From: Candidatus Omnitrophota bacterium
Lineage (GTDB): Bacteria; Omnitrophota; Gorgyraeia; Zapsychrales; Zapsychraceae
Assembly (NCBI GenBank): GCA_029261065.1
Contig: JAJDCB010000030.1
Coordinates: 48,196-112,195, forward strand
DNA length: 64,000 bases
Direction of reading: 5' to 3'
Positions 15,770-55,130 of the stretch are shown piece by piece (position 1 is the first letter of the stretch; the number at the start of each line of letters is the position of its first letter). The notes beneath the pieces were generated by a model, which worked only from the letters and a program-made list of their open reading frames with translations, searched no databases and had not been told where the DNA came from. Position numbers and translations under genes: made by a program.

Positions 15770-15850
15770 TTTAGCGTTCAAATTAATTTTTTATTGCGTC
15801 AATTTCGTGTATTATTTGGATGTTATGAAACTTTTTTGTTTGGAGGCCAG

Positions 15851-35701: not shown

Positions 35702-36123
35702 TGTCTTTGAGCGATGACGATTCCAAATTGATTGCGGCCAAGTGCTATTGCTTTAATTTTGTTCATCTCTAAATGGGCAACCCCATCGGATGAGCAGGCA
35801 AAAATGATATATTTATGATTTAAGTTGTTAAAATCTAACACAATGGGAGCTAAGGCGAATTGTGCGTGTGCAAAAAGTTTTGCGTTCTTTGGATCATCCA
35901 TGTCTTTGTCTGTGTAATATCCCATATATTCGACATCTTTTAAAAATGCCTCAATCCCTGCAAATTGATAACCCACCACATTAAAATCCAGAATTTTTTT
36001 ATAATTGTAAATGCGGCGAATTTCCTCTTTGAGTACGACGCTATTTGTTATCGTTAAGACGATAAGTGCTAAACAAAATAAAAATTGAGGGACAGTTCTA
36101 GGTTTTACGCGTGAGAAATTCAT
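35698..36123 (-). CDS. small membrane-anchored partner protein, paralog A
   Basis: 141 aa, N-terminal TM. The motif AQFALAPIVLD is shared with the 142-aa paralog (AQYFLAPTILE). 4-bp overlaps on both sides. Confidence 0.4.
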   Translation of the reverse strand: MNFSRVKPRTVPQFLFCLALIVLTITNSVVLKEEIRRIYNYKKILDFNVVGYQFAGIEAFLKDVEYMGYYTDKDMDDPKNAKLFAHAQFALAPIVLDFNNLNHKYIIFACSSDGVAHLEMNKIKAIALGRNQFGIVIAQRQ

Positions 36124-37487
36124 GTGTTTTCTATTTTTTTATTTTGGGGCCAATATACATAAAAAACATGAAATAGGATGGCCGGTAACAGATAAAAATA
36201 AATTCTAGGCAAAGAATAAGGGATCCACCAGTTAAGTCGGGTCTGTGTGCTGACTAAATATATAAAGATTATGATGATGAAGTAGCTCAAGAAAAAAAGA
36301 GTAACCCATAAGGTTTCTTTTTTTAAAAATTTAAATAATTTGGTAATCACCATGATAAGGATTAACATCCATATGTAACACCATTTTTTGTGAATAATTT
36401 CTTTACCTAAATAATCAAAAATAACGGCTAGACGATTGACGTTGATCATTTGTAATCCGGTTTGAGAGATGTTTGGTAAGATATCGCTATTAGGAGGTGC
36501 TAGAAATAACTTAAAGATAATGGTTGGTAAACAGGCTATAAGAAGTGTTATCAGAAAAAGCACATAGCAGGGCAGGTTGCTTTTTTGTTTGTTGCGTTGT
36601 TGCCAGAGTCGAATGAGAAAGATAACGGATAGTAATGCAGCAAAAACAATGCCTTCATTTTTTGCAAAGGTTAAGAATCCTAAATTTAAACCAGCTAGAA
36701 TAGAGATAGCAGGGTTTGACTCTTTATCGAGGAGATAAAAACAAATAAGGCTTATCAAGACAAACAAAGCAATAAGGATATCCGCATATTGTTGTGTGGC
36801 GCTAAATGCAAAATAAGGATGAAAGCCTAAGATAAGGGTCGCAAGTAGAGCATAGCCTTTTTTGATAAACAATGATAATCCTGTGTACATAAACATCGCA
36901 CAAGAGACGGTCAGCAGTATGCACGTGATAAACGGGACATAAAGCATGTGGGTATGAGAGAAGCTATTAAGCCATACATTGATAAGCGGCAATAACAAGG
37001 GATAGTCGGGGTGTGTGTGCCAAGAAAGGTTTGTTAGAATGTCGTCTAAGGGTGCACTACTTAGAAGTAAAAATTTCATTTTCATATTCCACATCGCCCA
37101 AGCATCCCATTCTCCATGAGGGTGGACGGATGCCACATAGTAATAAAGAGCAATAAGAAGTGTGAAGGCACAAATGACACTATAAGAAAAGAAAGAAAGT
37201 TTGTGTATGCGAAAGGGGTTGAGTAAGGTTCTGATGTTTTTGTTTGTTTTTAAGTTAAGTAGGATGACGCCTAAGAGGCTTAGAAGATTAAGACCTACAA
37301 TCAGCCAAGCATAAAATTTGTTAAAGAGAAGAAAGACAAAGAATGTCAGATAAGCCGAGAGACATAGGCCTGTGATGATAGATAAGCTTAAGTGTAGGAG
37401 GCTTTGATAGTATCGGGTTTCTTTGAAAATAAGCGAAAGGCTAAAGTACCCGAGGAGAAAAGAAATTAAGTGTGCGATGATAAACAT
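36120..37487 (-). CDS. GT-C-fold-like polytopic membrane protein, paralog B
   Basis: HGEWDAWAMWNMKMKF and HPDYPLLLPLINVW are collinear with the 479-aa paralog. Confidence 0.45.
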   Translation of the reverse strand: MFIIAHLISFLLGYFSLSLIFKETRYYQSLLHLSLSIITGLCLSAYLTFFVFLLFNKFYAWLIVGLNLLSLLGVILLNLKTNKNIRTLLNPFRIHKLSFFSYSVICAFTLLIALYYYVASVHPHGEWDAWAMWNMKMKFLLLSSAPLDDILTNLSWHTHPDYPLLLPLINVWLNSFSHTHMLYVPFITCILLTVSCAMFMYTGLSLFIKKGYALLATLILGFHPYFAFSATQQYADILIALFVLISLICFYLLDKESNPAISILAGLNLGFLTFAKNEGIVFAALLSVIFLIRLWQQRNKQKSNLPCYVLFLITLLIACLPTIIFKLFLAPPNSDILPNISQTGLQMINVNRLAVIFDYLGKEIIHKKWCYIWMLILIMVITKLFKFLKKETLWVTLFFLSYFIIIIFIYLVSTQTRLNWWIPYSLPRIYFYLLPAILFHVFYVYWPQNKKIENT

Positions 37488-37955: not shown

Positions 37956-39644
37956 TTATTTCAACTTTTCTTGAATCTCTGCGATCAGGTTATGATCAAA
38001 TTCATATTCTAATTCTTTGGCACGTAGGATGTGTGTTAATGCTTTTGGGTAATCCTTTTTGTGTCTATAAATTTTCGAAAGAAAATAATGCCCTTTTCCT
38101 GAGTCTTTATTCGTTTCTATGGCTTTAAGCCCTGATACTAAAGCCTCATCGTATCGATTTGATTTGATATATAAAAGACACTTATTAATAAGAGCTTTGG
38201 TGTATTCGGGATCATATTTAAGAGCTAAGTTGTAATTAACAACGGCGAGATCATATTTTTCTGAGTTTTGATATACAAGCCCAAGGTTGTAATGAGCATT
38301 TACATATTTAGGACGAAGCTTGACGGCTTTAGTAAAATCGGCGATCGCTAAATCGTATTGCTTTTTGCGAAGATAGATAACGCCTCTGTTATTAAGGATG
38401 AGAGGCGTGTTGGAAGAATATTCCATGGCTTTATCCCAAACCTTACCAGCATCTTTCCAGACTTTGTTTTGAAAGTGTGTTCGTGTGCCCAGTAATCCTA
38501 AGATGATGACGATACAAGTTGAAGCGATAAGAAAATGTTTTTGTTTGCGTTTTTTTGTTTGGGTTAATAATTGATCGGCTAGAGAACCTAATAAAAGACA
38601 GAGCCCTAAGCTGGGTAGGTACATAAAGCGATCAGCCACAACACTAACATGAACTTCTTCGGCCATGCGTAATAGGAAAAAGATGGAAAAGTAATAGTAG
38701 AGAAGAGCAAATAGGACTAAACGGTTTTTTCGAAAGCGAATTAGCAAATAGATAATAAGGGCAAAGACAATGACAGCAATGTTGTAATGAAGGTGATCAA
38801 ATCCAATGGGTTTGGGTAATTCATAAATTGGGCTTAAGTGAATGGGCAGGAAGAACTTTTGAATGTAAAATGTAAATGACCAGGTCCAGATCATGATTGC
38901 TTGGATAAAGTCTTTGGCTGGGACCCTCGCGTTAATTAAATAGGTAACTGCCGCGACAGGAACGATATAGAAAAAATGAGGAATTTTTTCTTTTAGAACA
39001 TTAAATGTGATCTTTCGGCCATGGTACCAGTCGAGGACCAGGAGAATAAAGGGTAAACTTAAGGCCATGGATTTTGCCAAGATGCTTAATAATCCTGCTA
39101 ACATTGATAAGATGAAAAATTTAATTTTTTTGTTGTCAAGATAATGCCAATAACTGCATAAGGCTAACATATAGAAAAAGGCATAAAGGACATCTTTTCT
39201 CTCCGTAATCCAAGCAACCGATTCGACATGCATCGGATGAATACCAAAGAGAAGGGCTGCCAGAAAAGCAGCCCGTATGCTGAGCCCCATCTGCAGGGCC
39301 AAAAGATAAATGAGGCCGCAGACGGCAACGTGTAAAAGGATGTTATTTAATATATAGAGAAAAGGCTTATCTTCAACGAAATGCCATTCTATGGCAAATG
39401 ATAAGACGCTTAAAGGAGCGTAAGTCTTTGTGACAGTTGATTTAAAGATATTTTTGATGCTCTGGAAACTAAGATGATGGACATCTACATTATCTGTCAC
39501 ATAAACATCATCATCCCAATTGGTGAATTCGTTTCCTAGATTTGAGGAAAAAAGGACAAATACAATGATTCCTAAGCAAATAGCCGTTAAAATGGCCTTT
39601 TTTTTGGGGATCGGGGGCGTAATAGTCTTAGATCGCTTTTTCAT
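37956..39644 (-). CDS. TMTC-like membrane glycosyltransferase: N-terminal GT-C/PMT-like TM domain + C-terminal TPR repeats
   Basis: Conserved N-terminal FTNWDDDVYVTDN (FxxDD) motif, about 10 TM helices, and a C-terminal run of TPR units (AHYNLGLVYQNSEKYDLA...). Confidence 0.55.
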   Translation of the reverse strand: MKKRSKTITPPIPKKKAILTAICLGIIVFVLFSSNLGNEFTNWDDDVYVTDNVDVHHLSFQSIKNIFKSTVTKTYAPLSVLSFAIEWHFVEDKPFLYILNNILLHVAVCGLIYLLALQMGLSIRAAFLAALLFGIHPMHVESVAWITERKDVLYAFFYMLALCSYWHYLDNKKIKFFILSMLAGLLSILAKSMALSLPFILLVLDWYHGRKITFNVLKEKIPHFFYIVPVAAVTYLINARVPAKDFIQAIMIWTWSFTFYIQKFFLPIHLSPIYELPKPIGFDHLHYNIAVIVFALIIYLLIRFRKNRLVLFALLYYYFSIFFLLRMAEEVHVSVVADRFMYLPSLGLCLLLGSLADQLLTQTKKRKQKHFLIASTCIVIILGLLGTRTHFQNKVWKDAGKVWDKAMEYSSNTPLILNNRGVIYLRKKQYDLAIADFTKAVKLRPKYVNAHYNLGLVYQNSEKYDLAVVNYNLALKYDPEYTKALINKCLLYIKSNRYDEALVSGLKAIETNKDSGKGHYFLSKIYRHKKDYPKALTHILRAKELEYEFDHNLIAEIQEKLK

Positions 39645-39844: not shown

Positions 39845-41524
39845 ATGAAACGTAATATTTGGTTTTTATGTATTGGCCTCATTATCGTTACTGGTATTTT
39901 TGCTAGAGTATATGATTTGAGTGGTCATTTTAGCCATATAGATGATATTGGTGTTGCCAAAACGATACTCGATCACAAGCTCGCTGATAAATCTCCTTTT
40001 CTAGCCGTTCCTTCCCGTTGGACATTCGCCCCTTTTCAATATTTTATTACCCCTTTTTTAGTCTCTATTGATCACACCTATCGTCAGCTTTTATTTTGGG
40101 GTCGTTTGCCTTCCTGTTTTTTTGGGATCTTAGGGATATTTTTTATGATTCAGTTTTATCGCCTTTATGAAGGTGATTTTTCTTATAAGACTCTTGTTCC
40201 GTTGTTCTTTTTTTGCTGTACCTGGGAAAACATCATATTCTCGAAACTTATGTATAATTATGCATTGGCTGTGACCGCATTCGTCGTATTGCTGATCCTT
40301 TATATGGATTATTTAAAGAAAATGAACTTTACTCTTAAAAAAGTTCTTTTTAACAGTTTGTGTTTAGGGGCGTTATGTTGGATGCATTATATTTTTCTTT
40401 ATTTTGTTCCTGTGTTTTATTTGTGTACATTTTTATATGCTTGCCAGTTCACGGAAAATAAGGGCAAAGTTGTTTTACAATATTGTTTAGGTGGGATCGT
40501 TGTCATTGTGTCTGTGTTTCCTTTGTGGTTTCTTTTTCTTCGGAAATTAATAGCCTCTGGACATTATGGGTTATATGGTTGGAATAGTGGAATTGATAAA
40601 GAATTTGTTTTTCATCTCCCAGAGGCGGGCTTCTTTCACGATATAGGTTATGCCGTTTCTTTTTTCTTTAAAAATTTCTTCTATATTTTTCAATTAAACA
40701 CAGGGTTTTTCCCAAACACACACTCCATTTTCCTACCTTTAAGTATAGTATTTCTTATTTTCTTTGTAATTGGGTTTTTTAGATTATTAACTCACAAAAA
40801 TTTGCATAAACGCTATTTAGGAATTTTCTTTGTTGTAACGATAATTGTATGGATTCTTTTAGTATGTACGCAGCGTCTTACTTTTTCACCAACGCGACAT
40901 AATTTTATTTTTATGCCGTTAATTGTTATTACACTGACCGAAGGGCTTTACTTGGTGCTTAAGGAGATTGGAAAGCGGATCGGGAGAAGTCATTTTAAGG
41001 ATTGGGGACAAGCAGTAATAATTGTAGGGTTGTTAATTTTGTTTGGATGTCATTATCAAACATTTCTTATCGAACGAAAAGATCGGTTAAATGAGCAAGA
41101 GATTTTAAAAATAGTTAAAACATACAATGTTGATACCATTATTCTGGCTGTTTGGACTCAACAAGTTGAGATGATGAAGAGTATTCGAGATCATTTTCAA
41201 TTTTATGAAACAGGATTTCGTGAAGATGCCAATATCTCGAAGGGGCCATCGACATATAAAAGGATTGCTTGGATTAGTCATCGAGATAAATTTAGTCCCA
41301 AATCTTACGAAAGGGCGAGATCAGCTGTAAATCATTATATTTATTACACTAATCCTAGACGTGTTAAGCGTAATAAGAAAGAATTGTCGTTGTTAAGATA
41401 TACTTTTAGATCTTATCGGGTGATTTATAAAAAGGTTATTGATTCAGATGTCGAACTCGAATTTGATAATAGAACACATAATGGAACGAATAATTTGTAT
41501 ATCTATATATTAGAGAGAAATTAA
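39845..41524 (+). CDS. polytopic membrane protein, GT-C-like (putative glycosyltransferase)
   Basis: 559 aa. First-loop acidic motif SHIDDIGVA and more than 10 TM helices. Confidence 0.4.
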   Translation: MKRNIWFLCIGLIIVTGIFARVYDLSGHFSHIDDIGVAKTILDHKLADKSPFLAVPSRWTFAPFQYFITPFLVSIDHTYRQLLFWGRLPSCFFGILGIFFMIQFYRLYEGDFSYKTLVPLFFFCCTWENIIFSKLMYNYALAVTAFVVLLILYMDYLKKMNFTLKKVLFNSLCLGALCWMHYIFLYFVPVFYLCTFLYACQFTENKGKVVLQYCLGGIVVIVSVFPLWFLFLRKLIASGHYGLYGWNSGIDKEFVFHLPEAGFFHDIGYAVSFFFKNFFYIFQLNTGFFPNTHSIFLPLSIVFLIFFVIGFFRLLTHKNLHKRYLGIFFVVTIIVWILLVCTQRLTFSPTRHNFIFMPLIVITLTEGLYLVLKEIGKRIGRSHFKDWGQAVIIVGLLILFGCHYQTFLIERKDRLNEQEILKIVKTYNVDTIILAVWTQQVEMMKSIRDHFQFYETGFREDANISKGPSTYKRIAWISHRDKFSPKSYERARSAVNHYIYYTNPRRVKRNKKELSLLRYTFRSYRVIYKKVIDSDVELEFDNRTHNGTNNLYIYILERN

Positions 41525-43588
41525 ATGTTAAACCAAATAGGATTGGATAGACTTTTGTATAAAGGGTTTGGATTGCAAACAAAGAAGGCGCAGGTTGCTT
41601 TTTTAGTGATACTGGCCATTAAAGTGTTGGTGATGATTCTATTTTCTTCAGATTATCAGAATCGCCTTTTTATTCCTTTTGTACAATATTTTATCGAAGT
41701 CTCTGGTAATCCTTGGGATTATTTCTATGCGCAAGGGAGATATGATCAATTCCCATATTCACCTGTTATGCTTTACTTTTTATCTATTTGTTATGCGCCT
41801 TTTTATTTATTAGGAGCTACCCATTCTTTATTAGGCCAGTTTTTCTTTAAATTACCAACGCTGTTTGCTGATCTCACCATTTTTTATTTATTGTGTCGTA
41901 TGTTTGAAGACAAAATGAAGGTGATGATTTATTATTTTGCAACACCTATCATTATTTATGCCTGTTATATGCATTCTCAGTTGGATCTTATACCAACGGC
42001 ATTACTTTTTTTATCGGTTTATTTATTAACTAAACGAAACTGTATCACCTCAGCGCTTGTATTCGGTTTGGCCGTGTGTGCCAAATTACATGTTGTTGCA
42101 GCTTTCCCGCTCCTGCTTATTTATTTACTAAAAACACACAAATTAAGAGGTGTTATGACTTTTTTATTCATAGCACCGTCAGTGTTTTTGATTATTGTTT
42201 TTCCTTTTTGGACAGAAGGTTATCAGCAGTTGGTGCTTAATAATTCCAAGCAAACGTTGATTTATGATTCTTACATCGCTGTAGGCAACCTGAAAGTATA
42301 CTTTACCGTTTTGTTGGTGGCCATTTTTTATGCGCGCGTCAGTGCTTTTCGTAAGATGAATAAAGATCTGCTCTACACATTTTTGGCCCTTATTTTTTCA
42401 ACGTTTGTATCATTGGCCCAACCCTCGCCGGGATGGTATGTGTGGTTGTTTCCTTTTCTTAGTATCTTTTTTATAAAATTTCATGAAAAAGCTCAACATA
42501 TTATTCGCTTATATGTGGCACTAAACGTGATGTATTTAGTTTATATGTTGCTTTTTTATTTACCCGAGTATCATGATCTTATTTTCTTGAAAACACCTAT
42601 TCATTTTAAGATCGATATTGAGAAATATCGTAATGTTAGTTTTACATTGCTCGAAGCTGTATTAATAGCGAGTATGTATGCTTTTTATAAGTTTGGAATC
42701 AGAAGTAACTTTTATTATAAGAAAAATACACCAGGCGTTATTGGGATTTCTGGTGATAGTGCCGCCGGTAAAACGACGATCCTATCTGATATAAGAAAGC
42801 TTTTTGGCCATCGTGTTTTAGAGTTAGAAGGGGACGCTGATCATAAGTGGGAACGCGATGATGAGCATTGGGAGGAGTTAACGCATTTAAATCCGAAAGC
42901 CAATTATCTTCATCGGCAATATAATGATATTCTTAATCTTCATAATCGTAATGCTGCTTTTCGTTGTGATTATGATCATAGTACGGGTAGGTTTACAAGT
43001 TCAAGAAAAGTAAGGGCAGATGACTATATTGTTTTAAGCGGACTACATGCTTTTTATCTTCCTAAAATGCGTAAGATTATTGATTTAAAAGTATTTGTTG
43101 ATACAGATGAAGGGTTGCGTCGATATTGGAAGGTTCAACGGGACACACGTGATCGTGGACGTAAAGTCAAAGATATCTTAAAGCAGATGGACCAGCGTGC
43201 TTTAGATGTTAAAAAATATATTCACCCTCAATATGATTTTGCAGATATTGTTGTTCAGTACTTTACGGATGATCCTATTAAATATGAAGAGCGTAATGCC
43301 AGGTATCATATGAAGTGTAAGGTTATTCTTGATTCAAACGTTTCTCTTCAAGCGATTGTTCATCGATTAGAAACAAAGCTTGATGTAACTTGGGACTATT
43401 CTCAAGATTTAAAAAATCAAAGTCTTATTGTGGATGGATGGCTTGAAAAAGAATATATCGCAAAGATGGCCCAAGAATATATAGTCAATTTAGAAGAATT
43501 GTTGGGTGATGATCCTATTTGGTTGGATGGTTACCGAGGTCTTGTTCAGTTTATGGTGTTGTTAATGTTAAGTGAGAAATTAAAATGA
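41525..43588 (+). CDS. fusion protein: N-terminal polytopic membrane domain (GT-C/DUF2029-like) + C-terminal uridine-kinase/PRK-family P-loop kinase domain
   Basis: C-terminal 230 aa: Walker A GISGDSAAGKTT and ...VLSGLHAFYL...VFVDTDEGLRRYWKVQRDTRDRGR...YDFADIVV, collinear with Udk. The N-terminal 400 aa has about 11 TM helices. Confidence 0.6.
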   Translation: MLNQIGLDRLLYKGFGLQTKKAQVAFLVILAIKVLVMILFSSDYQNRLFIPFVQYFIEVSGNPWDYFYAQGRYDQFPYSPVMLYFLSICYAPFYLLGATHSLLGQFFFKLPTLFADLTIFYLLCRMFEDKMKVMIYYFATPIIIYACYMHSQLDLIPTALLFLSVYLLTKRNCITSALVFGLAVCAKLHVVAAFPLLLIYLLKTHKLRGVMTFLFIAPSVFLIIVFPFWTEGYQQLVLNNSKQTLIYDSYIAVGNLKVYFTVLLVAIFYARVSAFRKMNKDLLYTFLALIFSTFVSLAQPSPGWYVWLFPFLSIFFIKFHEKAQHIIRLYVALNVMYLVYMLLFYLPEYHDLIFLKTPIHFKIDIEKYRNVSFTLLEAVLIASMYAFYKFGIRSNFYYKKNTPGVIGISGDSAAGKTTILSDIRKLFGHRVLELEGDADHKWERDDEHWEELTHLNPKANYLHRQYNDILNLHNRNAAFRCDYDHSTGRFTSSRKVRADDYIVLSGLHAFYLPKMRKIIDLKVFVDTDEGLRRYWKVQRDTRDRGRKVKDILKQMDQRALDVKKYIHPQYDFADIVVQYFTDDPIKYEERNARYHMKCKVILDSNVSLQAIVHRLETKLDVTWDYSQDLKNQSLIVDGWLEKEYIAKMAQEYIVNLEELLGDDPIWLDGYRGLVQFMVLLMLSEKLK

Positions 43589-44304
43589 GAGAGATCCCTT
43601 GGAGTCCTATAACTGGTTTATTGTTGGATTTGGATAATACGTTATACGATTACAACAAAGCACATCAACCAGCTTTACGAGAAGTTGTTCAGTTTTTATC
43701 TCAAAAGACTGGAGTTGTTAAAGAGGATATAGAAAAAGAATATGGTGTTGCTCGTGGGATGATTCATCAGCAGTTAAAGGGTAAAGCATCAAGTCATAAT
43801 CGTTTACTGTATTTTCAAAAGTTATTAGAAAATATAAATAAACCCATCATGCCTTATGCCTTAGAAGCGTATGATTTGTATTGGGATGTGTTTATTGAAC
43901 ATATTGTTTTGTTTGATGAGGTGATGTCTTTTTTAGAGAAAAATCAGGATAAAAGGATTTGTATCTTAACGGATTTAACAGCTGATATTCAGCATAAGAA
44001 GTTGCATAAGCTTGGATTAAGTTCTTATATTCACGCCCTTGTAACAAGTGAAGAAGTGGGCGTTGAGAAACCTGATCGCGGGATGTTTGAATGTGGGTTA
44101 AAGAAGTTAGGATGTATGAAAGAAGAGGTTTGTATGATCGGGGATAACTATGAGAAGGATGTGATGGGAGCGGTTGAGTTGGGTATGAAAGCGATTTGGG
44201 TGAATAAGGAGGGGGGGGAGCGTAGGGAGAGAGCTCTGGTTGTGGAGGTTGAGGATTTAAATTTTTCTTTAATGAGTTCCCCGCTTTCGCGGGGACGACA
44301 GTAG
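43585..44304 (+). CDS. HAD-superfamily phosphatase
   Basis: Motif I LLDLDNTLYD, motif III K, motif IV GDNYEKDV. The last about 10 codons (SSPLSRGRQ) come from palindromic repeat unit 44276-44300. Confidence 0.65.
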   Translation: MREIPWSPITGLLLDLDNTLYDYNKAHQPALREVVQFLSQKTGVVKEDIEKEYGVARGMIHQQLKGKASSHNRLLYFQKLLENINKPIMPYALEAYDLYWDVFIEHIVLFDEVMSFLEKNQDKRICILTDLTADIQHKKLHKLGLSSYIHALVTSEEVGVEKPDRGMFECGLKKLGCMKEEVCMIGDNYEKDVMGAVELGMKAIWVNKEGGERRERALVVEVEDLNFSLMSSPLSRGRQ

Positions 44305-44372
44305 TATGCGATCTCTGTTTTCGCGGGGACGACAACTATACTGTCATCCTCGCGAAAGCGGGGATCCGTGCG
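44276..44372. repeat. cluster of palindromic repeat units (gttccccgctttcgcggggacgaca; half-unit gttttcgcggggacgacaa; tgtcatcctcgcgaaagcggggatccgtgcg)
   Basis: Same ATCCCC-N8-GGGGAT family as at 22908-23020. It spans the end of the HAD gene and the start region of the next gene. Confidence 0.7.
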
Positions 44373-44395: not shown

Positions 44396-46042
44396 ATGCA
44401 AATTATAATCCCTATGTCCGGCGTAGGCAAGCGTTTCATTGACGCTGGCTATAAAGATGTTAAACCGTTAATCGAAGTGGACGGTTTGCCTATCATTGCA
44501 CATGTTATCAACATGTTTCCGGGTGAAAATAATTTTACTTTTGTCTGCAATAAAACGCATTTACAAGAAACGCCAATGGAAGAAATTTTAAAAGGTCTTG
44601 CTCCTTTTGGAAAAATTATAGGGATCGAACCTCATAAGAAAGGTCCTGTCTATGCGGTGGCAGAAGTGTTTGACGCAATTGATGAAAGGGAGGAGACAAT
44701 CGTTAACTATTGTGATTTTTCAAAGTATTGGGATTATGATGGCTTTCTTTCTCATACAAGAGCGCGGCAGGCTGATGGTGCGATAGCAGCGTATAAGGGG
44801 TTTCATCCTCATATGTTAGGTTCTACCAATTATGCCTTTATGCGCGACGATCAACAATGGCTTTTAGAAATTCAAGAGAAAGAGCCGTTTACGGATAATC
44901 GTATGCAAGAATATGCTTCTGATGGAACGTATTATTTTAAAAACGGCGGACTCGTAAAAAAATATTTTCAGCAATTGATGGATGAGGATATAAACCTTAA
45001 AGGAGAATATTATATAAGTTTGGTCTATACGTTAATGCTGAGAGATGGTCTTAAGTCTTCTGTTTATGAAATACAACATATGTTGCAATGGGGGGAGCCT
45101 GGACATTTACAAGAGTATCAACAATGGTCAAAATATTTTTCTAAAATGGTTGATGAGACAAAAAGCATTATCAATAATGAAGAGACGATTAATCTAATAC
45201 CTTTAGCTGGACGTGGACAACGATTTGTTGATGAAGGCTATCAAACACCAAAACCTCTTATAGATGTCAGTGGAAAACCAATGATTGTTCAGGCGGCCTC
45301 TTATTTGCCTCAATCGGGGGCGCAAACTTTTATTTGTTTAGAAGATCATCTAAAAGAATATCCTATCAAAGTTGCTCTTCTAGAAGCCTATCCCCAAGCC
45401 AATATTGTTTCCCTTAATGAAGTTACAGAAGGTCAGGCGTGCACGTGTGAGAAAGGAATAAGAGAAGAGGATTATGATAAACCGTTGTTTATTGCCGCCT
45501 CAGATAATGGAATGATATGGTCTGAAAAAAAGTTGCAATCCTTATTGGATGATACCTCAATAGGTTGTCTCGTTTGGAGTTTCCGGCATCATCCTTCAAG
45601 CGCTCAAAATCCTCAAATGTATGGTTGGATTAAAACGGATGAGAAAGAAAATGTTTTAGGCGTCTCAGTTAAAGTTCCAATTTCAGATGATCCGTTTAAT
45701 GATCATGCCATCATCGGGGCTTTTTATTTTCGTAAAGCCAGATTTTTTATTGATGCATTAGAACGACTTTATAAGAGTGATGTTCGTGTTAATAATGAAT
45801 TTTATGTCGATAGCTGCATTAACGAAATTGTGGCCATGGGTTTAAAGGCAAAAGTCTTTGAGGTGGATCATTATATCTGTTGGGGAACGCCGAATGATTT
45901 AAAAACATACGAATACTGGCAAAGTTATTTTCATAAAAGTGATCAACATCCGTATTGTTTAGAGAAAGATCGGAGAATGGAGTTAAGTAAATTGAAGGAT
46001 TATGAAAAAAAATATTCTTCTTTTAAACAGGAGCACAATTAA
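44396..46042 (+). CDS. tandem double nucleotidyltransferase (two sugar-phosphate/alcohol-phosphate NTP-transferase domains, LicC/IspD-like)
   Basis: Duplicated N-terminal signatures IIPMSGVGKRF...KPLIEVDGLPII and LIPLAGRGQRF...KPLIDVSGKPMI. Start placed at MQIIIPMSG (ATG 44396), because the upstream 30 codons are repeat-derived. Confidence 0.55.
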   Translation: MQIIIPMSGVGKRFIDAGYKDVKPLIEVDGLPIIAHVINMFPGENNFTFVCNKTHLQETPMEEILKGLAPFGKIIGIEPHKKGPVYAVAEVFDAIDEREETIVNYCDFSKYWDYDGFLSHTRARQADGAIAAYKGFHPHMLGSTNYAFMRDDQQWLLEIQEKEPFTDNRMQEYASDGTYYFKNGGLVKKYFQQLMDEDINLKGEYYISLVYTLMLRDGLKSSVYEIQHMLQWGEPGHLQEYQQWSKYFSKMVDETKSIINNEETINLIPLAGRGQRFVDEGYQTPKPLIDVSGKPMIVQAASYLPQSGAQTFICLEDHLKEYPIKVALLEAYPQANIVSLNEVTEGQACTCEKGIREEDYDKPLFIAASDNGMIWSEKKLQSLLDDTSIGCLVWSFRHHPSSAQNPQMYGWIKTDEKENVLGVSVKVPISDDPFNDHAIIGAFYFRKARFFIDALERLYKSDVRVNNEFYVDSCINEIVAMGLKAKVFEVDHYICWGTPNDLKTYEYWQSYFHKSDQHPYCLEKDRRMELSKLKDYEKKYSSFKQEHN

Positions 46043-46755
46043 TGGCTAAGAAAAAACTTTCTATTGTTGTTCCTTGTTACAATGAAGAAAAAAATATTCC
46101 TCTTATTCTTAATCGCTTTCTTAAAGTTTTAGGTCGAGCTGATATTGAAGTTATTTTGGTCAATAATGGATCAACGGATGATAGTGAGAATGTTTTAAAG
46201 GAATTATTACCTCAGTATCCTTTTGCAAGATCGGTTAGAGTTGAAGTCAATCAAGGTTATGGTTTTGGTATTATTGCCGGGCTTAATGAAGCTGTTGGTG
46301 ATTATATCGGTTGGACGCACGCAGATATGCAAACAGATCCTAATGATGTGATGAGAGCGTTGGCTATCATTGAAGAAAAAGGGAGTCCATTAAACATTTT
46401 TATTAAGGGAGACCGCCGAAATCGACAATTGTTTGATCAAGTGTTTACCTGGGGGATGAGTTGTTTTGAGTCAATGTATTTGGGGAAACGATTATGGGAT
46501 ATTAATGCGCAACCAAATATTTTTTCTCGGTCATTTTATTCAACGTGGAAAAATCCTCCACATGATTTCTCGTTAGATTTGTATGCTTTATATATGGCTA
46601 GGCGGCAAGATATAGAAGTTGTTCGATTTGAAGTTGTTTTTCCCAAACGGATTTACGGTCAATCCAGTTGGAATACAGGATTAAAATCAAAAGGTAAGTT
46701 TATTAAAAGAACACTCGATTTTAGTGTCTCTTTAAAAAAGAGATTAAAAGTATGA
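46042..46755 (+). CDS. GT2 family glycosyltransferase, Dpm1/GtrB-like polyprenyl-phosphate sugar synthase
   Basis: LSIVVPCYNEEKNI with DxD-like NNGSTDDS. Short soluble catalytic-domain size (237 aa). Confidence 0.65.
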   Translation: MAKKKLSIVVPCYNEEKNIPLILNRFLKVLGRADIEVILVNNGSTDDSENVLKELLPQYPFARSVRVEVNQGYGFGIIAGLNEAVGDYIGWTHADMQTDPNDVMRALAIIEEKGSPLNIFIKGDRRNRQLFDQVFTWGMSCFESMYLGKRLWDINAQPNIFSRSFYSTWKNPPHDFSLDLYALYMARRQDIEVVRFEVVFPKRIYGQSSWNTGLKSKGKFIKRTLDFSVSLKKRLKV

Positions 46756-47357
46756 TTTACATCGCACATCGTATCAACTCTAAAGAAGAGTTAAAAAAAT
46801 TACCTCAAGAATTTGGTGTTGAATTAGATTTGCGTGATCATGGTGAGCAACTCATTGTTCAACATGACCCTTTTAAAGATGGAGAAAATTTTGAAGAGTA
46901 TCTAGGAGAATATCAACACGGGCTTATGATACTTAATATTAAAAGCGAACGCATTGAACATCGTGTTTTGGATTTGCTTGAAAAATATGCTATTAAAGAT
47001 TATTTCTTCCTCGATTCATCTTTTCCTATGGTTTATACATTAAGCCAATCGGGCGAGCACAATGTCGCTGTGCGTTTTTCGGAATTTGAAGGGATTGATA
47101 CTGTTTTAGCTATGAAAAAACAAGTCAATTGGGTTTGGGTCGATTGTTTTACAAAAATGCCTTTGGATCGAGATAAAAGTTTAGCTATTAAACAAGCGGG
47201 TTTAAAAATATGTTTAGTTTCTCCAGAGTTGCAAGGCCGAGATGATCAAATAGAGGCGTATGCCAAAGAAATTCTGGATGCTTCAATAGATGTTGATGCT
47301 ATTTGTACAAAAAGTTACAATATTGAGAGATGGCAATCCATTCTTAAACGAGCATAA
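46752..47357 (+). CDS. glycerophosphodiester phosphodiesterase (GDPD)-like domain protein
   Basis: IAHRIN...ELDLRDHGEQLIVQHD matches the GDPD TIM-barrel N-terminal catalytic His/Asp pattern. 201 aa. Confidence 0.45.
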   Translation: MIYIAHRINSKEELKKLPQEFGVELDLRDHGEQLIVQHDPFKDGENFEEYLGEYQHGLMILNIKSERIEHRVLDLLEKYAIKDYFFLDSSFPMVYTLSQSGEHNVAVRFSEFEGIDTVLAMKKQVNWVWVDCFTKMPLDRDKSLAIKQAGLKICLVSPELQGRDDQIEAYAKEILDASIDVDAICTKSYNIERWQSILKRA

Positions 47358-47360
47358 ATT

Positions 47361-48431
47361 ATGAAACAAGAAATTACGATAAACGATCCTTTAGAAAAAT
47401 ATCAGAAGGAGCTTTCTGATATTAAGTTTGCTCTTGATGCTTCGACCATTGTTGCGATGACCGACCAAAAGGGCAAGATCACTTATGTTAATGATAAGTT
47501 CTGCAAAATATCTCAGTATAGTCGTGATGAACTCATAGGAGAAGATCATCGCATTATTAATTCGAACCATCACCCTAAAGAGTTTTTTAAAAATTTGTGG
47601 GATACAATTAAAAAGGGAGAGGTTTGGAGTGGAGAAATTAAGAATAGAACGAGAAGGGGGACTTATTATTGGGTTAGCACGACCATTGTTCCTTTTCTAG
47701 ATTTTGAAGGTAAGCCCTATCAGTATGTGGCTATTCGTCATGAAATAACAAAACGTAAAGAGATGGAGGCGGCTGTTAAGCAGTTGCCACAACGCATTAT
47801 TCATGCGCAGGAAAAAGAAAGAGAAGGGATCTCGCGAGAAATTCATGATGACTTAGGGCAATCCTTGGCTATGCTAAAGATGTCGATTCAGTCGACGATT
47901 CATAATGATCAACTGAGACCGGAAATAGCGTCATACGAGAAGATATTGCAATATCTAAATAAGATTATTGATAAAACTCGCCATTTAGCTTCTGGCTTAA
48001 GGCCTTCTACATTAGAGGTTGTTGGATTAACGACAGCTTTAAAAACTCTTATTAACGATTTTAAGACGTATTCTTCAATTGAAGTTCATTTTCATTGTAT
48101 TGATCTAGAAGATTTTAATTTTAAAGGTGAGGTGATAAATATTTACAGAATTGTTCAAGAAGCCTTAAATAACATTACTAAACATTCTCAAGCGAGTACT
48201 CTTAACATTGATATTAACTATTGTGATCAGATGTTAAATCTTAGCATTAAAGACAATGGAGTTGGCATGGAGATAGAGAGTAGTTCTTTTGAAAATAGTG
48301 TAGTTGGTGGCTTGGGGCTTACGACGATAAAAGAACGTGTTAGCATGCTTAAAGGAGAAATGTTCATTAAATCAAAATCTAATCAAGGAACAAAACTTTT
48401 GTTTCGTATCCCAGTTGATAAGAAAGGTTGA
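47361..48431 (+). CDS. PAS sensor histidine kinase (HisKA_3 / NarX-type)
   Basis: PAS ([26 protein letters not shown]), H-box [17 protein letters not shown], and HATPase N/G boxes ([18 protein letters not shown]). Confidence 0.75.
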
Positions 48432-49081
48432 ATGTAATGGATCGGTTACGTATTATCATCGCAGATGATCATCAAATATTTAGAGAAGGTTTAAAAAATT
48501 TAATTGAGTCCAACGAGAACTATTCTGTTGTTGGAGAAGCAAATGATGGAGAAAAGCTTTTAGAGCTTGTGAAGCATAAAAAGAGCGATGTGATTATTTC
48601 TGACATATCAATGCCCAATATGGATGGGTTAAGTGCTATAAAAAAAATTTCAGAACAATTTCCAGATATTAAAATCTTAGTTCTTTCGATGCTAAAAGAC
48701 AATGTGCATTTAAAGAATGCCCTTAGTCATGGTGCGGCGGGTTACATTTTAAAAGATGATGCCTATGATGAGTTGCAAATGGCCATTGAGCGAGTGAGAA
48801 AAGGGAAACGATACATATCATCGGCCTTATCACAGTTATTTGTCGAAAGGCATGTTTGTGCAGATAACGATCTTGACGCCCCTTCATTAGAAATTCTTAC
48901 GAAAAGAGAGCGAGAGGTTCTTAAATATGTTGCAAAGGGTTATCCGAACAAGTTGATAGCAAGCAGGCTAAAAATTAGTTCACGCACAGTTGAGGCCCAC
49001 CGTGGTAATCTTTCCAAAAAGCTTGGCATTTTTAACACAGCAGGTTTAGTCAAATATGCCCTTTCTAAAACCCTCCTTTAG
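48428..49081 (+). CDS. response regulator, NarL/LuxR family
   Basis: REC domain (IIADDH..., D in VIISDISMP) + C-terminal LuxR HTH ([36 protein letters not shown]). Confidence 0.8.
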
Positions 49082-50026: not shown

Positions 50027-51043
50027 ATGATTAAAGTAGGTATTATTGGATGTGGGTATTGGGGGCCGAATCATATACGTATTTTTTCTCAATTGGCTAA
50101 CTCTCAAGCTGTGATGTGTGCTGATTTGGATGAAAATCGGTTGGCAAATGTTAAAGATTTATACCCTAATCTCCAAACAACAACAAATTATAAAGATATT
50201 TTGACCAATGATGAGATAAGGGCTGTGTGTATCGCATCACCTACCAATACCCATTTTAATCTCACCAAAGAGGCTTTAGAGCATGGCAAGCATGTTCTTG
50301 TAGAAAAACCTCTTGCTTTACATACAAAAGAATGTCAGGAACTCAAGGAGTTAGCTGAAAAAAAGAAGTTGGTGCTTATGGTGGGCCACGTTTTTCTTTT
50401 TAATTCCAGCATCCAATGGCTTAAAGATTACATTAAAGCCGGAGAGATGGGACAAATTTATTATGCTTATTGTACGCGAACCAATTTAGGACCATTTCGT
50501 TATGATGTTAATGCGTTATGGGATTTAGCCCCACACGATATTTCTATCTTAAATTATTTATTTGAAGGTTCTCCTATTAATGTCTCGGGACGCGGTCAGA
50601 AATCATTAGGCAGTTCGCTTGAAGATTTATCATTTGCTACTATGGAATACGAACAAGGCATTATTGCAAACGTTCATGTGAGTTGGTTGGATCCAAAGAA
50701 GGTGAGGCAGATGACAATTGTTGGAGAGAAAAAGATGGTGACGTGGGATGATTTAGATGGTTTAGGTCCGATTAAGCTTTATGATAAACATGTTGAGAAA
50801 ACCTCAACCTATTATGCGACGTACGGGGAGTTTCAGTTGCTTTCTAAAGAAGGAAGTATCACGTTACCCAATATCTCAGCAAGTGAACCTTTAAAGGCGC
50901 AGGGTCAGTATTTTATGGAGTGTGTGGAGAAGGTAAAAAATCCTGATCTAGCCGATGCGCAAAAAGGATTGGAGGTTGTTAAAACGTTGTGTGGTATTCA
51001 AGAATCCATGGATTTAAAGGGAACTTGTGTTGCCATTATATAG
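50027..51043 (+). CDS. Gfo/Idh/MocA family NAD(P)-dependent sugar oxidoreductase
   Basis: Rossmann KVGIIGCGYWGPNH, then EKPLA and the C-terminal alpha/beta domain typical of the family. Confidence 0.7.
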   Translation: MIKVGIIGCGYWGPNHIRIFSQLANSQAVMCADLDENRLANVKDLYPNLQTTTNYKDILTNDEIRAVCIASPTNTHFNLTKEALEHGKHVLVEKPLALHTKECQELKELAEKKKLVLMVGHVFLFNSSIQWLKDYIKAGEMGQIYYAYCTRTNLGPFRYDVNALWDLAPHDISILNYLFEGSPINVSGRGQKSLGSSLEDLSFATMEYEQGIIANVHVSWLDPKKVRQMTIVGEKKMVTWDDLDGLGPIKLYDKHVEKTSTYYATYGEFQLLSKEGSITLPNISASEPLKAQGQYFMECVEKVKNPDLADAQKGLEVVKTLCGIQESMDLKGTCVAII

Positions 51044-51055
51044 AGAGATAAAGCT

Positions 51056-54824: not shown

Positions 54825-55130
54825 ATGAAACGAATTGGTATTGCTGCTAGTAAAATGGCCAAGGGAAATCGTGCGCTTTACAACGGCTATGTTGTATTGA
54901 TTTCCGCCCTTTTTTCATTGTTTATTTTTGTCATTGCTGGTGCTAGTGTTGTCTTTGCGCTAATCATTATTGCCACCATTGGTAATGAAATTATGCCAGA
55001 TGACAATTTTACAGAAAACTGGAAATCCATCCTTACTGTTTGTATGGTTTCTCTAACAGTCATCATTGCCATTTTTAACGTTTTTGCTATTACAAAGAAT
55101 ATTAAATTTCCTAAAGGAATAGAAAAATAA
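54825..55130 (+). CDS. small hypothetical membrane protein
   Basis: 101 aa, 3 TM helices. Confidence 0.3.

What the first reader, a model, noticed from the sequence alone, without database searches (positions are those of the whole stretch)
41525..43588. Membrane-domain::uridine-kinase-like fusion protein
The C-terminal 230 aa align collinearly with uridine/cytidine kinase, including the Walker A GxSGxGKTT loop, the acceptor-site region and the ...RD..RGR... lid. These are fused to an about 11-TM N-terminal domain resembling GT-C/DUF2029 glycosyltransferases. A PRK-family kinase tethered to a polytopic membrane domain inside a glycan locus suggests phosphorylation of a lipid-linked or sugar intermediate at the membrane, which is not a known Udk-family role.
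Basis: partly seen in the sequence, partly recalled or inferred. Interest (0 to 1): 0.6.

Follow-up and report, generated by a model that had tools for sequence, protein, structure and literature searches.

The report
Membrane glycosyltransferase fused to phosphoribulokinase-like kinase
A real, widespread but unstudied bacterial protein joins an outward-facing membrane sugar-transferase to an inward-facing kinase built like the Calvin-cycle enzyme phosphoribulokinase, inside a conserved gene set that probably turns a pentose phosphate into a lipid-linked sugar for decorating the cell surface.

Summary

The kinase is PRK-like, not uridine-kinase-like. Its score against PRK is 170 bits, against 81 for Udk. 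Every strictly conserved PRK catalytic and Ru5P-binding residue is invariant (D437, R444, Y483, H485, R539, D540, R544).

The positive-inside rule puts the kinase in the cytoplasm and the GT-C motifs outside.

The gene heads a conserved cassette: a HAD phosphatase closest to RuBP 5-phosphatase, usually a class II aldolase-fold enzyme (absent here), a tandem nucleotidyltransferase, an ArnC/DPMS-like GT2, and an invariant GDPD-fold phosphodiesterase.

Best reading: the kinase starts, and the GT-C finishes, a dedicated route from a ribulose-5-phosphate-like sugar to a polyprenyl-phosphate-linked donor for extracytoplasmic glycosylation. The chemistry and the acceptor are inferred, not shown. I found no published description.

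The parts
41525..43588 (+). Whole fusion ORF (687 aa): GT-C membrane domain plus PRK-like kinase
   Evidence: ORF listed. AlphaFold model pLDDT 91.9, pTM 0.88. 457 homologues, at least 474 species genomes, identical ORF in an independent assembly.
41525..42715 (+). GT-C glycosyltransferase-fold membrane domain (aa 1-397). About 12 crossings plus a kinked re-entrant pair at aa 130-149. Invariant F40, S42, FPY76-78, P111, D116, Y137, Y145, Q152, D154, K187, N279, W304, W307.
42716..43588 (+). Complete class II phosphoribulokinase-like kinase (aa 398-687), predicted cytoplasmic. P-loop 407-418. Catalytic D437/H485. Phosphate site R444/Y483/H485. Loop R539/D540/R544.
43585..44304 (+). HAD-IA phosphatase whose start overlaps the fusion's stop (ATGA). 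Closest characterised family is RuBP 5-phosphatase.
   Evidence: Pfam HAD_2 E=1.9e-22. NCBIfam NF053830 at 154.7 bits (cut-off 330), next best 115.9. It is the best hit in 16/16 family members. Overlap read directly from sequence. Present next to the fusion in 71/85 loci.
44396..46042 (+). Tandem (two-domain) sugar-phosphate nucleotidyltransferase, 'NTase2'. The true start is probably the ATG at 44396. The mechanical ORF start at 44306 reads through a repeat element.
   Evidence: Pfam NTP_transferase. Alignment with homologues starting at MQIIIPMSG, with two GxGxRF motifs. PDB relatives are 4evw, GlmU and CDP-glucose synthase. Found in 75/85 loci. Fused to GT2 in L038 and L043.
46042..46755 (+). 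Soluble GT2 of the polyprenyl-phosphate glycosyltransferase type (ArnC/DPMS/GtrB-like)
   Evidence: Pfam Glycos_transf_2 E=2.6e-23. The closest solved structures are ArnC (top three), DPMS and GtrB. Found in 71/85 loci. Fused to GtrA in L063 and to NTase2 in L038/L043.
46752..47357 (+). 'U200': compact cytoplasmic GDPD-fold phosphodiesterase-like protein, extremely conserved (invariant H6, R7, E24, D26, H38, D39)
39845..41524 (+). 559-aa polytopic membrane protein of unknown family. Its stop abuts the fusion's start. It is a clade-specific partner.
   Evidence: ORF. No Pfam or NCBIfam hit. About 10 hydrophobic segments. A homologue lies directly upstream only in the window's nearest relatives L005 and L007; weaker matches elsewhere in L009, L084 and L085. 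No profile similarity to the fusion's GT-C domain.
44286..44356 (.). Three copies of a short palindromic repeat (TTCGCGGGGACGACA), at the position where other genomes carry the Aldolase_II gene
   Evidence: 5 copies in the window against 0.02 expected. No Aldolase_II homologue anywhere in the window (tblastn). Aldolase_II is present in 77/85 other loci.

Best explanation
The protein is a two-faced enzyme.

Membrane half. The N-terminal ~397 aa form a GT-C glycosyltransferase whose conserved polar motifs (EL1 F-S-S...FPY, D116, MHSQLD150-154) face the outside of the cytoplasmic membrane. Like its structural relatives, it would use a polyprenyl-phosphate-linked monosaccharide as donor.

Kinase half. 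A long helix (aa 366-398) leads straight into a complete class II phosphoribulokinase-like domain on the cytoplasmic side.

Proposed pathway. The kinase phosphorylates C1 of ribulose-5-phosphate, or a very close ketose phosphate, to the 1,5-bisphosphate. The translationally coupled HAD removes the 5-phosphate to give the pentulose-1-phosphate. In most lineages, though not this one, a class II aldolase-fold enzyme remodels or epimerises it. The tandem nucleotidyltransferase, with the GDPD-fold phosphodiesterase, converts it into a nucleotide-activated sugar. The ArnC/DPMS-like GT2 loads it on undecaprenyl phosphate. A flippase (GtrA where present) moves it across the membrane. The GT-C half of the same protein then transfers it to an envelope acceptor.

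Meaning of the fusion. It ties the first committed step and the last step of one pathway into one, probably dimeric, polypeptide.

Shown here: domain identities, conservation of catalytic residues, the fusion's reality and spread, and cassette conservation. Inferred: topology, Ru5P as the substrate, the order of steps, the identity of the sugar, and the acceptor.
For: - Fold and family of both halves.
- All strictly conserved PRK residues are invariant in 60 homologues (Asp57/His105 dyad; Arg64, Tyr103 and His105 phosphate site; Arg159/Asp160/Arg164). The only mismatch (Arg67 to E447) is the one position the PRK papers call variable.
- The HAD overlaps the fusion's stop codon, and its best hit in 16/16 members is the haloarchaeal RuBP 5-phosphatase. 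That enzyme is strictly RuBP-specific and is itself in an operon with a class II aldolase.
- Neighbourhood census of 85 loci from more than 12 phyla: Aldolase_II 77, NTase2 75, HAD 71, GT2 71, U200 65, GtrA 33, mostly in the same order.
- Rosetta-stone fusions NTase2::GT2 and GtrA::GT2.
- The GT2 is closest to ArnC, DPMS and GtrB.
- All close structural relatives of the GT-C domain use Dol-P or polyprenyl-P monosaccharide donors.
- Positive-inside analysis gives a consistent N-in/C-in topology, with the linker before the kinase the most basic loop (K+R = 3.2).
- pTM 0.88 for the whole chain indicates a defined packing between the domains.
Against: - No biochemistry exists for any member.
- The kinase scores below NCBIfam's PRK cut-off (170.6 against 236), and the HAD below the RuBP-phosphatase cut-off (154.7 against 330). 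Both are relatives, not members, so substrates could differ.
- A C1 phosphate on a ketose is not anomeric, so how the product becomes a donor for an inverting GT2 is unexplained. My cyclic-phosphate idea for U200 is speculation, and the single-domain NTases in Leptospiraceae and Clostridia weaken it.
- The canonical GT-C catalytic Asp at the start of EL1 is only D in 34/60 sequences.
- The aldolase-fold gene is missing here and in the nearest relatives. HAD is missing beside the fusion in 14 of 85 loci, about 10 of which still carry other cassette genes.
- Genomes with a second, solitary fusion paralogue keep an intact kinase. A purely 'first pathway enzyme' role does not require that.
- No flippase is identifiable in the window.
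- Topology was inferred without model coordinates.
Confidence: 0.55

Rival explanations
1. The kinase is needed in cis as a coupling or regulatory module rather than, or as well as, a bulk metabolic enzyme. Two versions are possible. In one, it senses or gates donor supply across the membrane, so that kinase turnover or PRK-type dimerisation controls the GT-C half through the aa 366-398 helix. In the other, it phosphorylates a later intermediate at the inner membrane face (for example the primary hydroxyl of an NDP- or polyprenyl-P-linked sugar), with the HAD removing that phosphate after transfer, as in PRPP-based pentofuranose pathways.
For: Genomes with two fusion paralogues keep all kinase residues in the solitary copy, which has no cassette nearby. 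In 80/80 loci found through kinase-domain motifs, the GT-C domain is in the same ORF. 117 of the top 150 hits to the membrane domain alone are full-length fusions. Class II PRKs are dimers through the C-terminal domain retained here. In the PRPP systems, a HAD removes the 5-phosphate only after transfer to lipid or glycan.
Against: The pocket residues are exactly those that bind free Ru5P in PRK. The HAD's closest characterised relative acts on free RuBP. No known PRK/Udk-family enzyme acts on lipid-linked substrates (my knowledge of the family).
Confidence: 0.2
2. The kinase, HAD and aldolase-fold enzymes form a small catabolic or building-block shunt like the haloarchaeal non-carboxylating pentose bisphosphate pathway: Ru5P to RuBP to Ru1P to DHAP plus glycolaldehyde. 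This would supply a C2 or C3 unit to the glycan pathway, or simply be co-located with it, rather than providing the transferred sugar itself.
For: The PRK-like, RuBP-5-phosphatase-like HAD and class II aldolase-fold trio mirrors the characterised haloarchaeal HAD and FucA-like operon. The aldolase-fold protein retains the Glu and three-His metal motif.
Against: The window and its nearest relatives keep kinase, HAD, NTase2, GT2 and U200 but have no aldolase, so the pathway works without cleavage. The shunt gives no substrate for the always-present nucleotidyltransferase. The aldolase-fold protein is not specifically FucA-like: its best PDB hit is the uncharacterised 3m4r, and FucA scores only E~5e-4. 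The shunt does not explain a fusion to a GT-C.
Confidence: 0.1
3. One reading: a uridine/cytidine-kinase-like nucleoside kinase tethered to the membrane that phosphorylates a lipid-linked intermediate or polyprenol.
Against: PRK models and structures win by 30 or more orders of magnitude in E-value in every member. The extra ~100 C-terminal residues are the PRK-specific domain. The PRK-specific Ru5P residues are invariant. Udk NCBIfam cut-offs are missed by about 100 bits or more.
Confidence: 0.04
4. Artefact: two adjacent genes merged by a sequencing or assembly frameshift near nt 42700.
For: None found.
Against: The same architecture and length occur in hundreds of homologues from independent projects, in 80/80 fetched genome loci, and as the identical ORF in an independent Logan assembly. 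The model shows a continuous helix across the junction with high pLDDT.
Confidence: 0.01

Closest known systems
Class II (plant, cyanobacterial, archaeal type) phosphoribulokinase, e.g. Synechococcus PRK 6KEV/6HZK, M. hungatei 5B3F, and the 'cyanobacteria-specific PRK' 9QKO/9QKN
   Different: Only ~23-26% identity, and below the NCBIfam PRK cut-off. It is fused to a membrane domain. It is not linked to RuBisCO or Calvin-cycle genes in any locus examined. It occurs in lineages such as Leptospiraceae, Paenibacillus, Clostridia and Babeliales, which are not known as autotrophs (my knowledge). It has family-specific invariant residues of its own (H440, W442, W449, THLxP 453-457, N460, Q465).
GT-C glycosyltransferases that use polyprenyl-P or Dol-P monosaccharide donors: GPI mannosyltransferase I (PIG-M/Gpi14), ALG3, ALG6, PimE, MptA/B, ArnT
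Three-component transmembrane glycosylation systems (GtrA/GtrB/Gtr*, ArnC/ArnT, CsbB/GtcA/YfhO)
   Same: A DPMS/ArnC/GtrB-like GT2, a GtrA-family protein (33/85 loci, and fused to GT2 in one) and a GT-C, all in one operon.
   Different: Those systems take a common housekeeping nucleotide sugar. Here the operon also encodes its own kinase, phosphatase, aldolase-fold enzyme, tandem nucleotidyltransferase and GDPD-fold protein, and the first of these is fused to the GT-C.
PRPP-based polyprenyl-P-pentofuranose pathways (C. youngae ORF12-15 with GT136; mycobacterial DPA pathway)
   Same: A pentose-phosphate-derived, lipid-linked donor for a periplasmic GT-C. A HAD phosphatase removes a 5-phosphate. 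Optional epimerases diversify the sugar.
   Different: Those use PRPP and a UbiA-like polyprenyl phosphoribose synthase with a MATE or SMR flippase, and involve no nucleotide sugar. Here there is no UbiA-like synthase. Instead there is a PRK-like kinase, a nucleotidyltransferase and a GT2.
Haloarchaeal non-carboxylating pentose bisphosphate pathway (RuBP 5-phosphatase plus Ru1P aldolase; Sato et al. 2022)
   Same: The HAD is the closest characterised relative of the cassette's HAD (16/16 members). A HAD and a class II aldolase-fold gene are adjacent, and RuBP is the implied intermediate.
   Different: That pathway is catabolic, and its RuBP comes from ribose-1,5-bisphosphate isomerase, not from a PRK. 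The HAD here scores less than half the equivalog cut-off. The aldolase-fold protein here is ~355 aa, is not FucA-like, and is dispensable in this clade.
Nucleotide-heptose pathway logic (HldE/HddA kinase, GmhB HAD phosphatase, nucleotidyltransferase). This comparison rests on my own knowledge and was not tested here.
   Same: Sugar monophosphate, then a kinase makes the bisphosphate, a HAD phosphatase makes the sugar-1-phosphate, and a nucleotidyltransferase makes the NDP-sugar.
   Different: The kinase family differs (ribokinase or GHMP against PRK). The heptose kinase phosphorylates the anomeric position, whereas PRK-type enzymes phosphorylate a primary C1 hydroxyl of a ketose.

Membership tests
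Phosphoribulokinase, class II (NCBIfam NF005655 / PDB 6KEV, 5B3F type) | P-loop kinase core plus PRK-specific C-terminal domain (whole-chain fold) | tested here: met
Phosphoribulokinase, class II (NCBIfam NF005655 / PDB 6KEV, 5B3F type) | Catalytic Asp/His dyad (CrPRK Asp57/His105) | tested here: met
   D437 and H485, with the same 48-residue spacing, are invariant in 60/60 sequences.
Phosphoribulokinase, class II (NCBIfam NF005655 / PDB 6KEV, 5B3F type) | Ru5P phosphate site (Arg64, Tyr103, His105) and the Arg159/Asp160/Arg164 loop | tested here: met
   R444, Y483, H485, R539, D540 and R544 are invariant. Arg67 (E447 here) is the one position those papers call non-conserved.
Phosphoribulokinase, class II (NCBIfam NF005655 / PDB 6KEV, 5B3F type) | Score at or above the curated family cut-off | tested here: not met
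   170.6 bits against a cut-off of 236. All 60 members match, best E 9.5e-63. It is a relative, not a curated member.
Phosphoribulokinase, class II (NCBIfam NF005655 / PDB 6KEV, 5B3F type) | ATP:Ru5P 1-phosphotransferase activity | not testable with these tools
   Needs an enzyme assay.
Uridine/cytidine kinase (Udk; TIGR00235, NF004018) | Score at or above the curated cut-off, and Udk as the best-matching family | tested here: not met
   81.3 bits (cut-off 180) and 74.4 bits (cut-off 220.3). PRK outranks Udk in 60/60 members. PDB E 1e-18 against 1e-51 for PRK.
GT-C glycosyltransferases (ALG3, PIG-M, PimE, MptA/B-like) | GT-C membrane fold | tested here: met
GT-C glycosyltransferases (ALG3, PIG-M, PimE, MptA/B-like) | Conserved acidic catalytic residue in the first extracytoplasmic loop | tested here: inconclusive
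   D43 is D in 34, G in 14, N in 4 and E in 4 of 60. No invariant acid lies in aa 40-79. D116 and D154 are invariant instead. Their position relative to the donor site could not be measured because no model coordinates were available.
GT-C glycosyltransferases (ALG3, PIG-M, PimE, MptA/B-like) | Sequence-family membership (Pfam ALG3, GT87/DUF2029, PMT_2, MptA_B) | tested here: not met
   No N-terminal Pfam hit on the window protein. Only sporadic weak hits in homologues: ALG3 25.7 bits in P0012, GT87 E=0.063 in P0070, MptA_B 'weak' in P0080.
GT-C glycosyltransferases (ALG3, PIG-M, PimE, MptA/B-like) | Uses a polyprenyl-phosphate-linked sugar donor | not testable with these tools
   Supported only by context: ArnC/DPMS/GtrB-like GT2 in 71/85 loci and GtrA in 33/85.
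Three-component (GtrA/GtrB/GT-C type) extracytoplasmic glycosylation system | Polyprenyl-phosphate GT2 and a GT-C encoded together | tested here: met
   GT2 at 46042-46755 is closest to ArnC, DPMS and GtrB. The GT-C domain is in the same operon.
Three-component (GtrA/GtrB/GT-C type) extracytoplasmic glycosylation system | GtrA-family (or other) flippase in the locus | tested here: not met
   An HMM built from 20 cassette GtrA proteins finds nothing in the window at E up to 10. GtrA is present in 33/85 related loci.
RuBP 5-phosphatase (NCBIfam NF053830), for the downstream HAD | Score at or above the equivalog cut-off | tested here: not met
   154.7 bits against a cut-off of 330. It is nevertheless the top family in 16/16 members.
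GDPD / PLC-like phosphodiesterases, for U200 | GDPD barrel fold with the His-Arg, Glu/Asp and His catalytic motif positions | tested here: met

The most novel reading that the evidence does not exclude
Many non-autotrophic bacteria, across at least a dozen phyla, make ribulose-1,5-bisphosphate with a PRK-type kinase not for carbon fixation but as the entry to a previously unrecognised sugar-activation route. The route would run RuBP, then pentulose-1-phosphate, then a nucleotide-linked sugar, then a polyprenyl-phosphate-linked sugar. It would involve a GDPD-fold enzyme in nucleotide-sugar chemistry. Its first and last enzymes are welded into one transmembrane protein, so that donor synthesis inside is coupled to glycan transfer outside. 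The transferred residue would be a ketopentose or a pentose derived from it, for which no activated donor pathway of this kind is known.
Probability: 0.35. Interest if true: 0.8.

Novelty: new variant of a known kind. Interest (0 to 1): 0.68.

Why it matters
If the inference holds, three things follow.

1. It explains the 'uridine kinase' and 'phosphoribulokinase' annotations scattered through genomes that have no Calvin cycle.
2. It adds a third route for feeding pentose-phosphate carbon into extracytoplasmic glycosylation, beside ordinary nucleotide sugars and the PRPP-based polyprenyl-phosphoribose route.
3. It gives an unusual case of the first and last enzymes of a pathway sitting on opposite membrane faces of one polypeptide. 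That is a natural system for studying how cells match donor synthesis to surface demand.

The cassette is present in cultivable organisms (Paenibacillus spp., Flavobacterium gawalongense, Clostridium sp. LS, Oceanidesulfovibrio marinus, Aliarcobacter), so all of this is directly testable. It also flags a very large and very conserved orphan family, the GDPD-fold 'U200' with 3,882 hits, that has no Pfam model.

Tried and rejected
- Frameshift or merge artefact: rejected.
- Udk identity: rejected in favour of PRK-type.
- DUF2029/GT87 sequence membership: not obtained for this protein. The GT-C assignment rests on fold instead.
- Aldolase_II in the window: looked for by tblastn with two cassette aldolases and found absent. 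It is also absent in the nearest relatives and in the independent assembly.
- GtrA in the window: looked for with an HMM and found absent.
- Upstream 559-aa membrane protein as a paralogue of the GT-C domain: hhalign shows no similarity. This is a weak test, since one side was a single sequence.
- Literature: ten searches ([rejected for syntax], 28, 32, 52, 53, 54, 61, 62, 78) found no description of the fusion, the cassette, or the source paper for PDB 9QKO/9QKN. Subscription-only papers are not covered.
- Model coordinates were not exposed to scripts. I therefore could not measure where D116 and D154 sit, dock Ru5P, or count crossings geometrically. Topology rests on the positive-inside rule.
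- Source organism: not identified. Cluster look-up gave no name. The nearest fusion homologues are from Omnitrophota and PVC-type MAGs.
Full report
**1. The observation**

The ORF at 41525..43588 on the + strand encodes 687 aa from an ATG. Its stop overlaps the start of the next gene (ATGA at 43585-43588). Its start directly follows the stop of the preceding gene (TAA then ATG at 41522-41527). Pfam places a PRK/Udk-family domain at aa 405-582 (E=5e-33), with nothing on aa 1-400.

That is excluded on three grounds.
- A search of 5.8 billion proteins returned 457 homologues. The 120 best listed are nearly all 655-790 aa with 82-100% query coverage, at 41-60% identity.
- A scan of one genome per species found at least 474 genomes that encode a relative. 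All 80 fetched loci match the query from residues 3-41 through to residues 637-687.
- An independent Logan assembly of a sequencing run contains the identical 687-aa ORF.

**2. What the two halves are**

An AlphaFold model built on 60 homologues is very confident (mean pLDDT 91.9, pTM 0.88).

The C-terminal ~290 residues superpose on entire phosphoribulokinases, not just on a Udk-sized core.
- Foldseek gives TM 0.78 over 304 columns to the 'cyanobacteria-specific PRK' 9QKO and 0.74 to the archaeal PRK 5B3F. Uridine kinases align over only ~185 columns.
- By sequence, a family profile hits class II PRKs at E~1e-51 and Udk at ~1e-18.
- NCBIfam ranks PRK (170.6 bits) far above Udk (81.3 and 74.4) for this protein, and the same ranking holds for all 60 aligned members.

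**3. Is the kinase competent, and for what?**

Published PRK structures define three groups of residues:
- a catalytic Asp/His dyad (CrPRK Asp57/His105);
- a site for the Ru5P phosphate made of Arg64, Tyr103 and His105, with Arg67 explicitly not conserved;
- a flexible loop carrying Arg159, Asp160 and Arg164.

In the HMM alignment to Synechococcus PRK, these map to D437/H485 (identical 48-residue spacing), R444, Y483, H485 and R539/D540/R544. All of them are invariant across the 60 homologues, as is the P-loop G410, S412, G415, K416. The single mismatch is Arg67 to E447, the variable position.

The pocket is that of a ketose-phosphate kinase. The family also has invariant residues of its own (H440, W442, W449, T453-H454-L455-x-P457, N460, Q465). 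It scores below the curated PRK cut-off. Ru5P is therefore the best guess for the substrate, not a demonstrated one.

**4. Topology**

I applied the positive-inside rule to the model's helices across the alignment.

If the least hydrophobic helix pair (aa 130-149, broken at P141) is treated as re-entrant, every loop is consistent. Under that reading:
- the N-terminus is inside;
- the acidic EL1 (aa 40-79), the invariant H-S-Q-L-D motif (150-154) and the long loops 229-259 and 345-365 are outside;
- the most basic loop (aa 393-403, mean K+R 3.2) is inside, immediately before the kinase.

That places the ATP-dependent domain in the cytoplasm, on the opposite face from the conserved GT-C motifs. 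This is an inference, not a measurement.

**5. The surroundings: a conserved cassette**

In the window the genes run as follows:

| Coordinates | Product |
|---|---|
| 39845-41524 | 559-aa membrane protein of unknown family |
| 41525-43588 | the fusion |
| 43585-44304 | HAD phosphatase |
| 44396-46042 | two-domain nucleotidyltransferase (NTase2) |
| 46042-46755 | GT2 |
| 46752-47357 | 201-aa protein with no Pfam hit ('U200') |
| 47361-49081 | PAS histidine kinase and LuxR-type regulator |

Contexts in Oceanidesulfovibrio marinus, Paenibacillus tianmuensis, a Margulisbacteria MAG and a cyanobacterial-lineage MAG (P0080, labelled 'soil metagenome') show the same set in the same order, plus a ~355-aa class II aldolase-fold gene after the HAD and, in Paenibacillus, a GtrA. 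A Babeliales MAG carries a partial set: fusion, Aldolase_II and NTase2.

A phmmer census over 85 loci (flank 10 kb, several cut by contig ends) found:

| Cassette member | Loci (of 85) |
|---|---|
| Aldolase_II | 77 |
| NTase2 | 75 |
| HAD | 71 |
| GT2 | 71 |
| U200 | 65 |
| GtrA | 33 |

The loci come from Melainabacteria, Leptospiraceae, Paenibacillus, Clostridia, Flavobacteriia, Cloacimonadota, Chlamydiae, Babeliales/TM6, Bacteriovoracales, Gammaproteobacteria, Campylobacterota, Nitrospirota, Omnitrophota, Elusimicrobia and SAR324.

Rosetta-stone fusions link NTase2 to GT2 (L038 and L043, 756 aa) and GtrA to GT2 (L063, 374 aa).

**6. The cassette members**

- HAD. Its best NCBIfam match, in 16 of 16 members tested, is the haloarchaeal RuBP 5-phosphatase (best E 2e-52; 154.7 bits here against 115.9 for the runner-up, with a cut-off of 330). 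That enzyme is strictly specific for RuBP, yields cyclised ribulose-1-phosphate, and always sits in an operon with a class II aldolase.
- Aldolase-fold protein. It keeps the Pro-Ser-x-Glu and three-His metal motif. It is closest to an uncharacterised structure (3m4r, E 2e-22) and only weakly similar to FucA.
- NTase2. It has two GxGxRF nucleotide-binding motifs. Leptospiraceae and Clostridia carry only the N-terminal half. Solved relatives are sugar-1-phosphate nucleotidyltransferases.
- GT2. Its nearest solved relatives are ArnC (top three), DPMS and GtrB.

**7. How it most likely works**

The coherent reading is a self-contained donor pathway bracketed by the two halves of the fusion. The cytoplasmic PRK-like domain phosphorylates Ru5P, or a near analogue. 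The overlapping HAD removes the 5-phosphate. The aldolase-fold enzyme, where present, remodels or epimerises the ketose-1-phosphate. NTase2 and U200 produce a nucleotide-activated form. GT2 makes the polyprenyl-phosphate sugar. A flippase exports it. The GT-C half transfers it to an envelope acceptor.

- Shown: domain identities, residue conservation and gene linkage.
- Inferred: the substrate, the order of steps, the sugar, the acceptor and the topology.

The weak point is chemical. A PRK-type kinase phosphorylates a primary C1 hydroxyl, not an anomeric one, so the route to a donor usable by an inverting GT2 is unclear. The notebook gives one speculative scheme that uses the phosphodiesterase and the second NTase half, and one that isomerises to an aldopentose-1-phosphate. 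Neither was tested.

**8. Observations that do not fit neatly**

- The canonical EL1 Asp of GT-C enzymes is D in only 34 of 60 sequences (G in 14), whereas D116 and D154 are invariant.
- Two Obscuribacterales genomes each hold a second, solitary fusion paralogue, ~64% identical to the cassette copy, with G at position 43 and no cassette genes within 10 kb. It still retains every kinase residue. This suggests the kinase is needed in cis with each GT-C, for coupling, regulation or dimerisation, and not only as a bulk first enzyme.
- The window and its nearest relatives lack the aldolase-fold gene altogether. This argues against a cleavage (shunt) role for that enzyme in the core pathway.
- 14 of the 85 loci lack a HAD hit. 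About 10 of those still carry other cassette genes.
- No flippase is recognisable in the window.

**9. Comparison with what is known**

The system works like the three-component Gtr/Arn/CsbB-YfhO glycosylation systems. In using pentose-phosphate carbon and a HAD 5-phosphatase, it also resembles the PRPP-based polyprenyl-phosphoribose systems described in 2024. It differs from both because its donor arm is PRK-like kinase, HAD, nucleotidyltransferase, GDPD-fold protein and GT2, with no UbiA-like synthase, and because the kinase is fused to the GT-C.

Searching the membrane domain alone against 1.84 billion representatives gave 941 hits. Of the top 150, 117 are full-length fusions, and most of the shorter ones match to their very last residue, which points to contig-end fragments. 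This GT-C subfamily is therefore essentially defined by the fusion.

Ten literature searches found no description of it. Databases label members 'uridine kinase', 'phosphoribulokinase' or 'hypothetical'.

**10. Verdict**

The kinase is PRK-type, not Udk-type. It most likely acts on a soluble ketose phosphate at the start of a dedicated donor pathway, rather than on a lipid-linked intermediate.

[quoted passage not shown] Interest is 0.68. It is widespread, unstudied, mechanistically puzzling, and testable in cultivable hosts.

Noticed in passing
window 44286-44356 and 22907-22980: A short palindromic repeat (TTCGCGGGGACGACA) occurs 5 times against 0.02 expected. Three copies lie between the HAD stop and the true NTase2 start, exactly where other genomes carry the Aldolase_II gene. 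They add a spurious 30-aa N-terminal extension (…SRGRQLYCHPRESGDP…) to the mechanically called NTase2 ORF and create a spurious 147-aa antisense ORF (43892-44335). The other two copies flank the 3' end of the YfhO-like gene.
   Followed up: partly
window 46752-47357: U200 is a 201-aa cytoplasmic GDPD-fold protein with no Pfam model. It is more conserved across phyla (62-69% identity among the 120 best hits) than the fusion itself, and has 3,882 database homologues. It is an orphan family worth its own study.
   Followed up: yes
L032, L035, L047 (Obscuribacterales MAGs): These are second, solitary paralogues of the GT-C::PRK fusion (741 aa in L032 and L035, 734 aa in L047). L032 and L035 have no cassette genes within 10 kb, and their genomes also carry a full cassette (L015, L014); L047 is a 6.8-kb contig. 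All three keep every kinase residue and carry Gly instead of Asp at EL1 position 43.
   Followed up: partly
L038 and L043 (12992-15262); L063 (6503-7627): Natural gene fusions NTase2::GT2 (756 aa) and GtrA::GT2 (374 aa) occur within the same cassette.
   Followed up: yes
window ~4660-16000: A probable integrated mobile element: a large serine recombinase (4660-6231, - strand) and a D5-like primase/helicase (6632-8833, - strand). GC content drops to 0.305-0.33 here, against ~0.35-0.39 elsewhere.
   Followed up: no
window 20736-22937, 34262-35701, 36120-37487, 37956-39644, 39845-41524, 57806-59668: An unusual density of large polytopic and/or TPR-bearing proteins: a weak YfhO hit, a PMT hit, a TM+TPR protein and several with no family hit. 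They may be further GT-C-type enzymes or acceptor-handling partners of the same glycan system.
   Followed up: partly
window 47361-49081 and 55130-57436: A PAS histidine kinase and a LuxR-type response regulator follow U200 with a 3-nt gap, and a hybrid PAS histidine kinase lies further downstream. They may regulate the cassette. The same pair follows the cassette in the independent assembly.
   Followed up: no
window 50027-52347: A second small sugar-modification cluster: a GFO/IDH/MocA oxidoreductase, a hexapeptide acyltransferase and a GT2. This is typical of amino-sugar synthesis and is probably part of the same surface-glycan locus.
   Followed up: no
PDB 9QKO/9QKP/9QKN (external): The closest solved structures to the kinase domain are recently released 'cyanobacteria-specific PRK' paralogues, one of them deposited as 'uridine kinase'. 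I could not find their source paper or function. Their function may bear on this family.
   Followed up: partly
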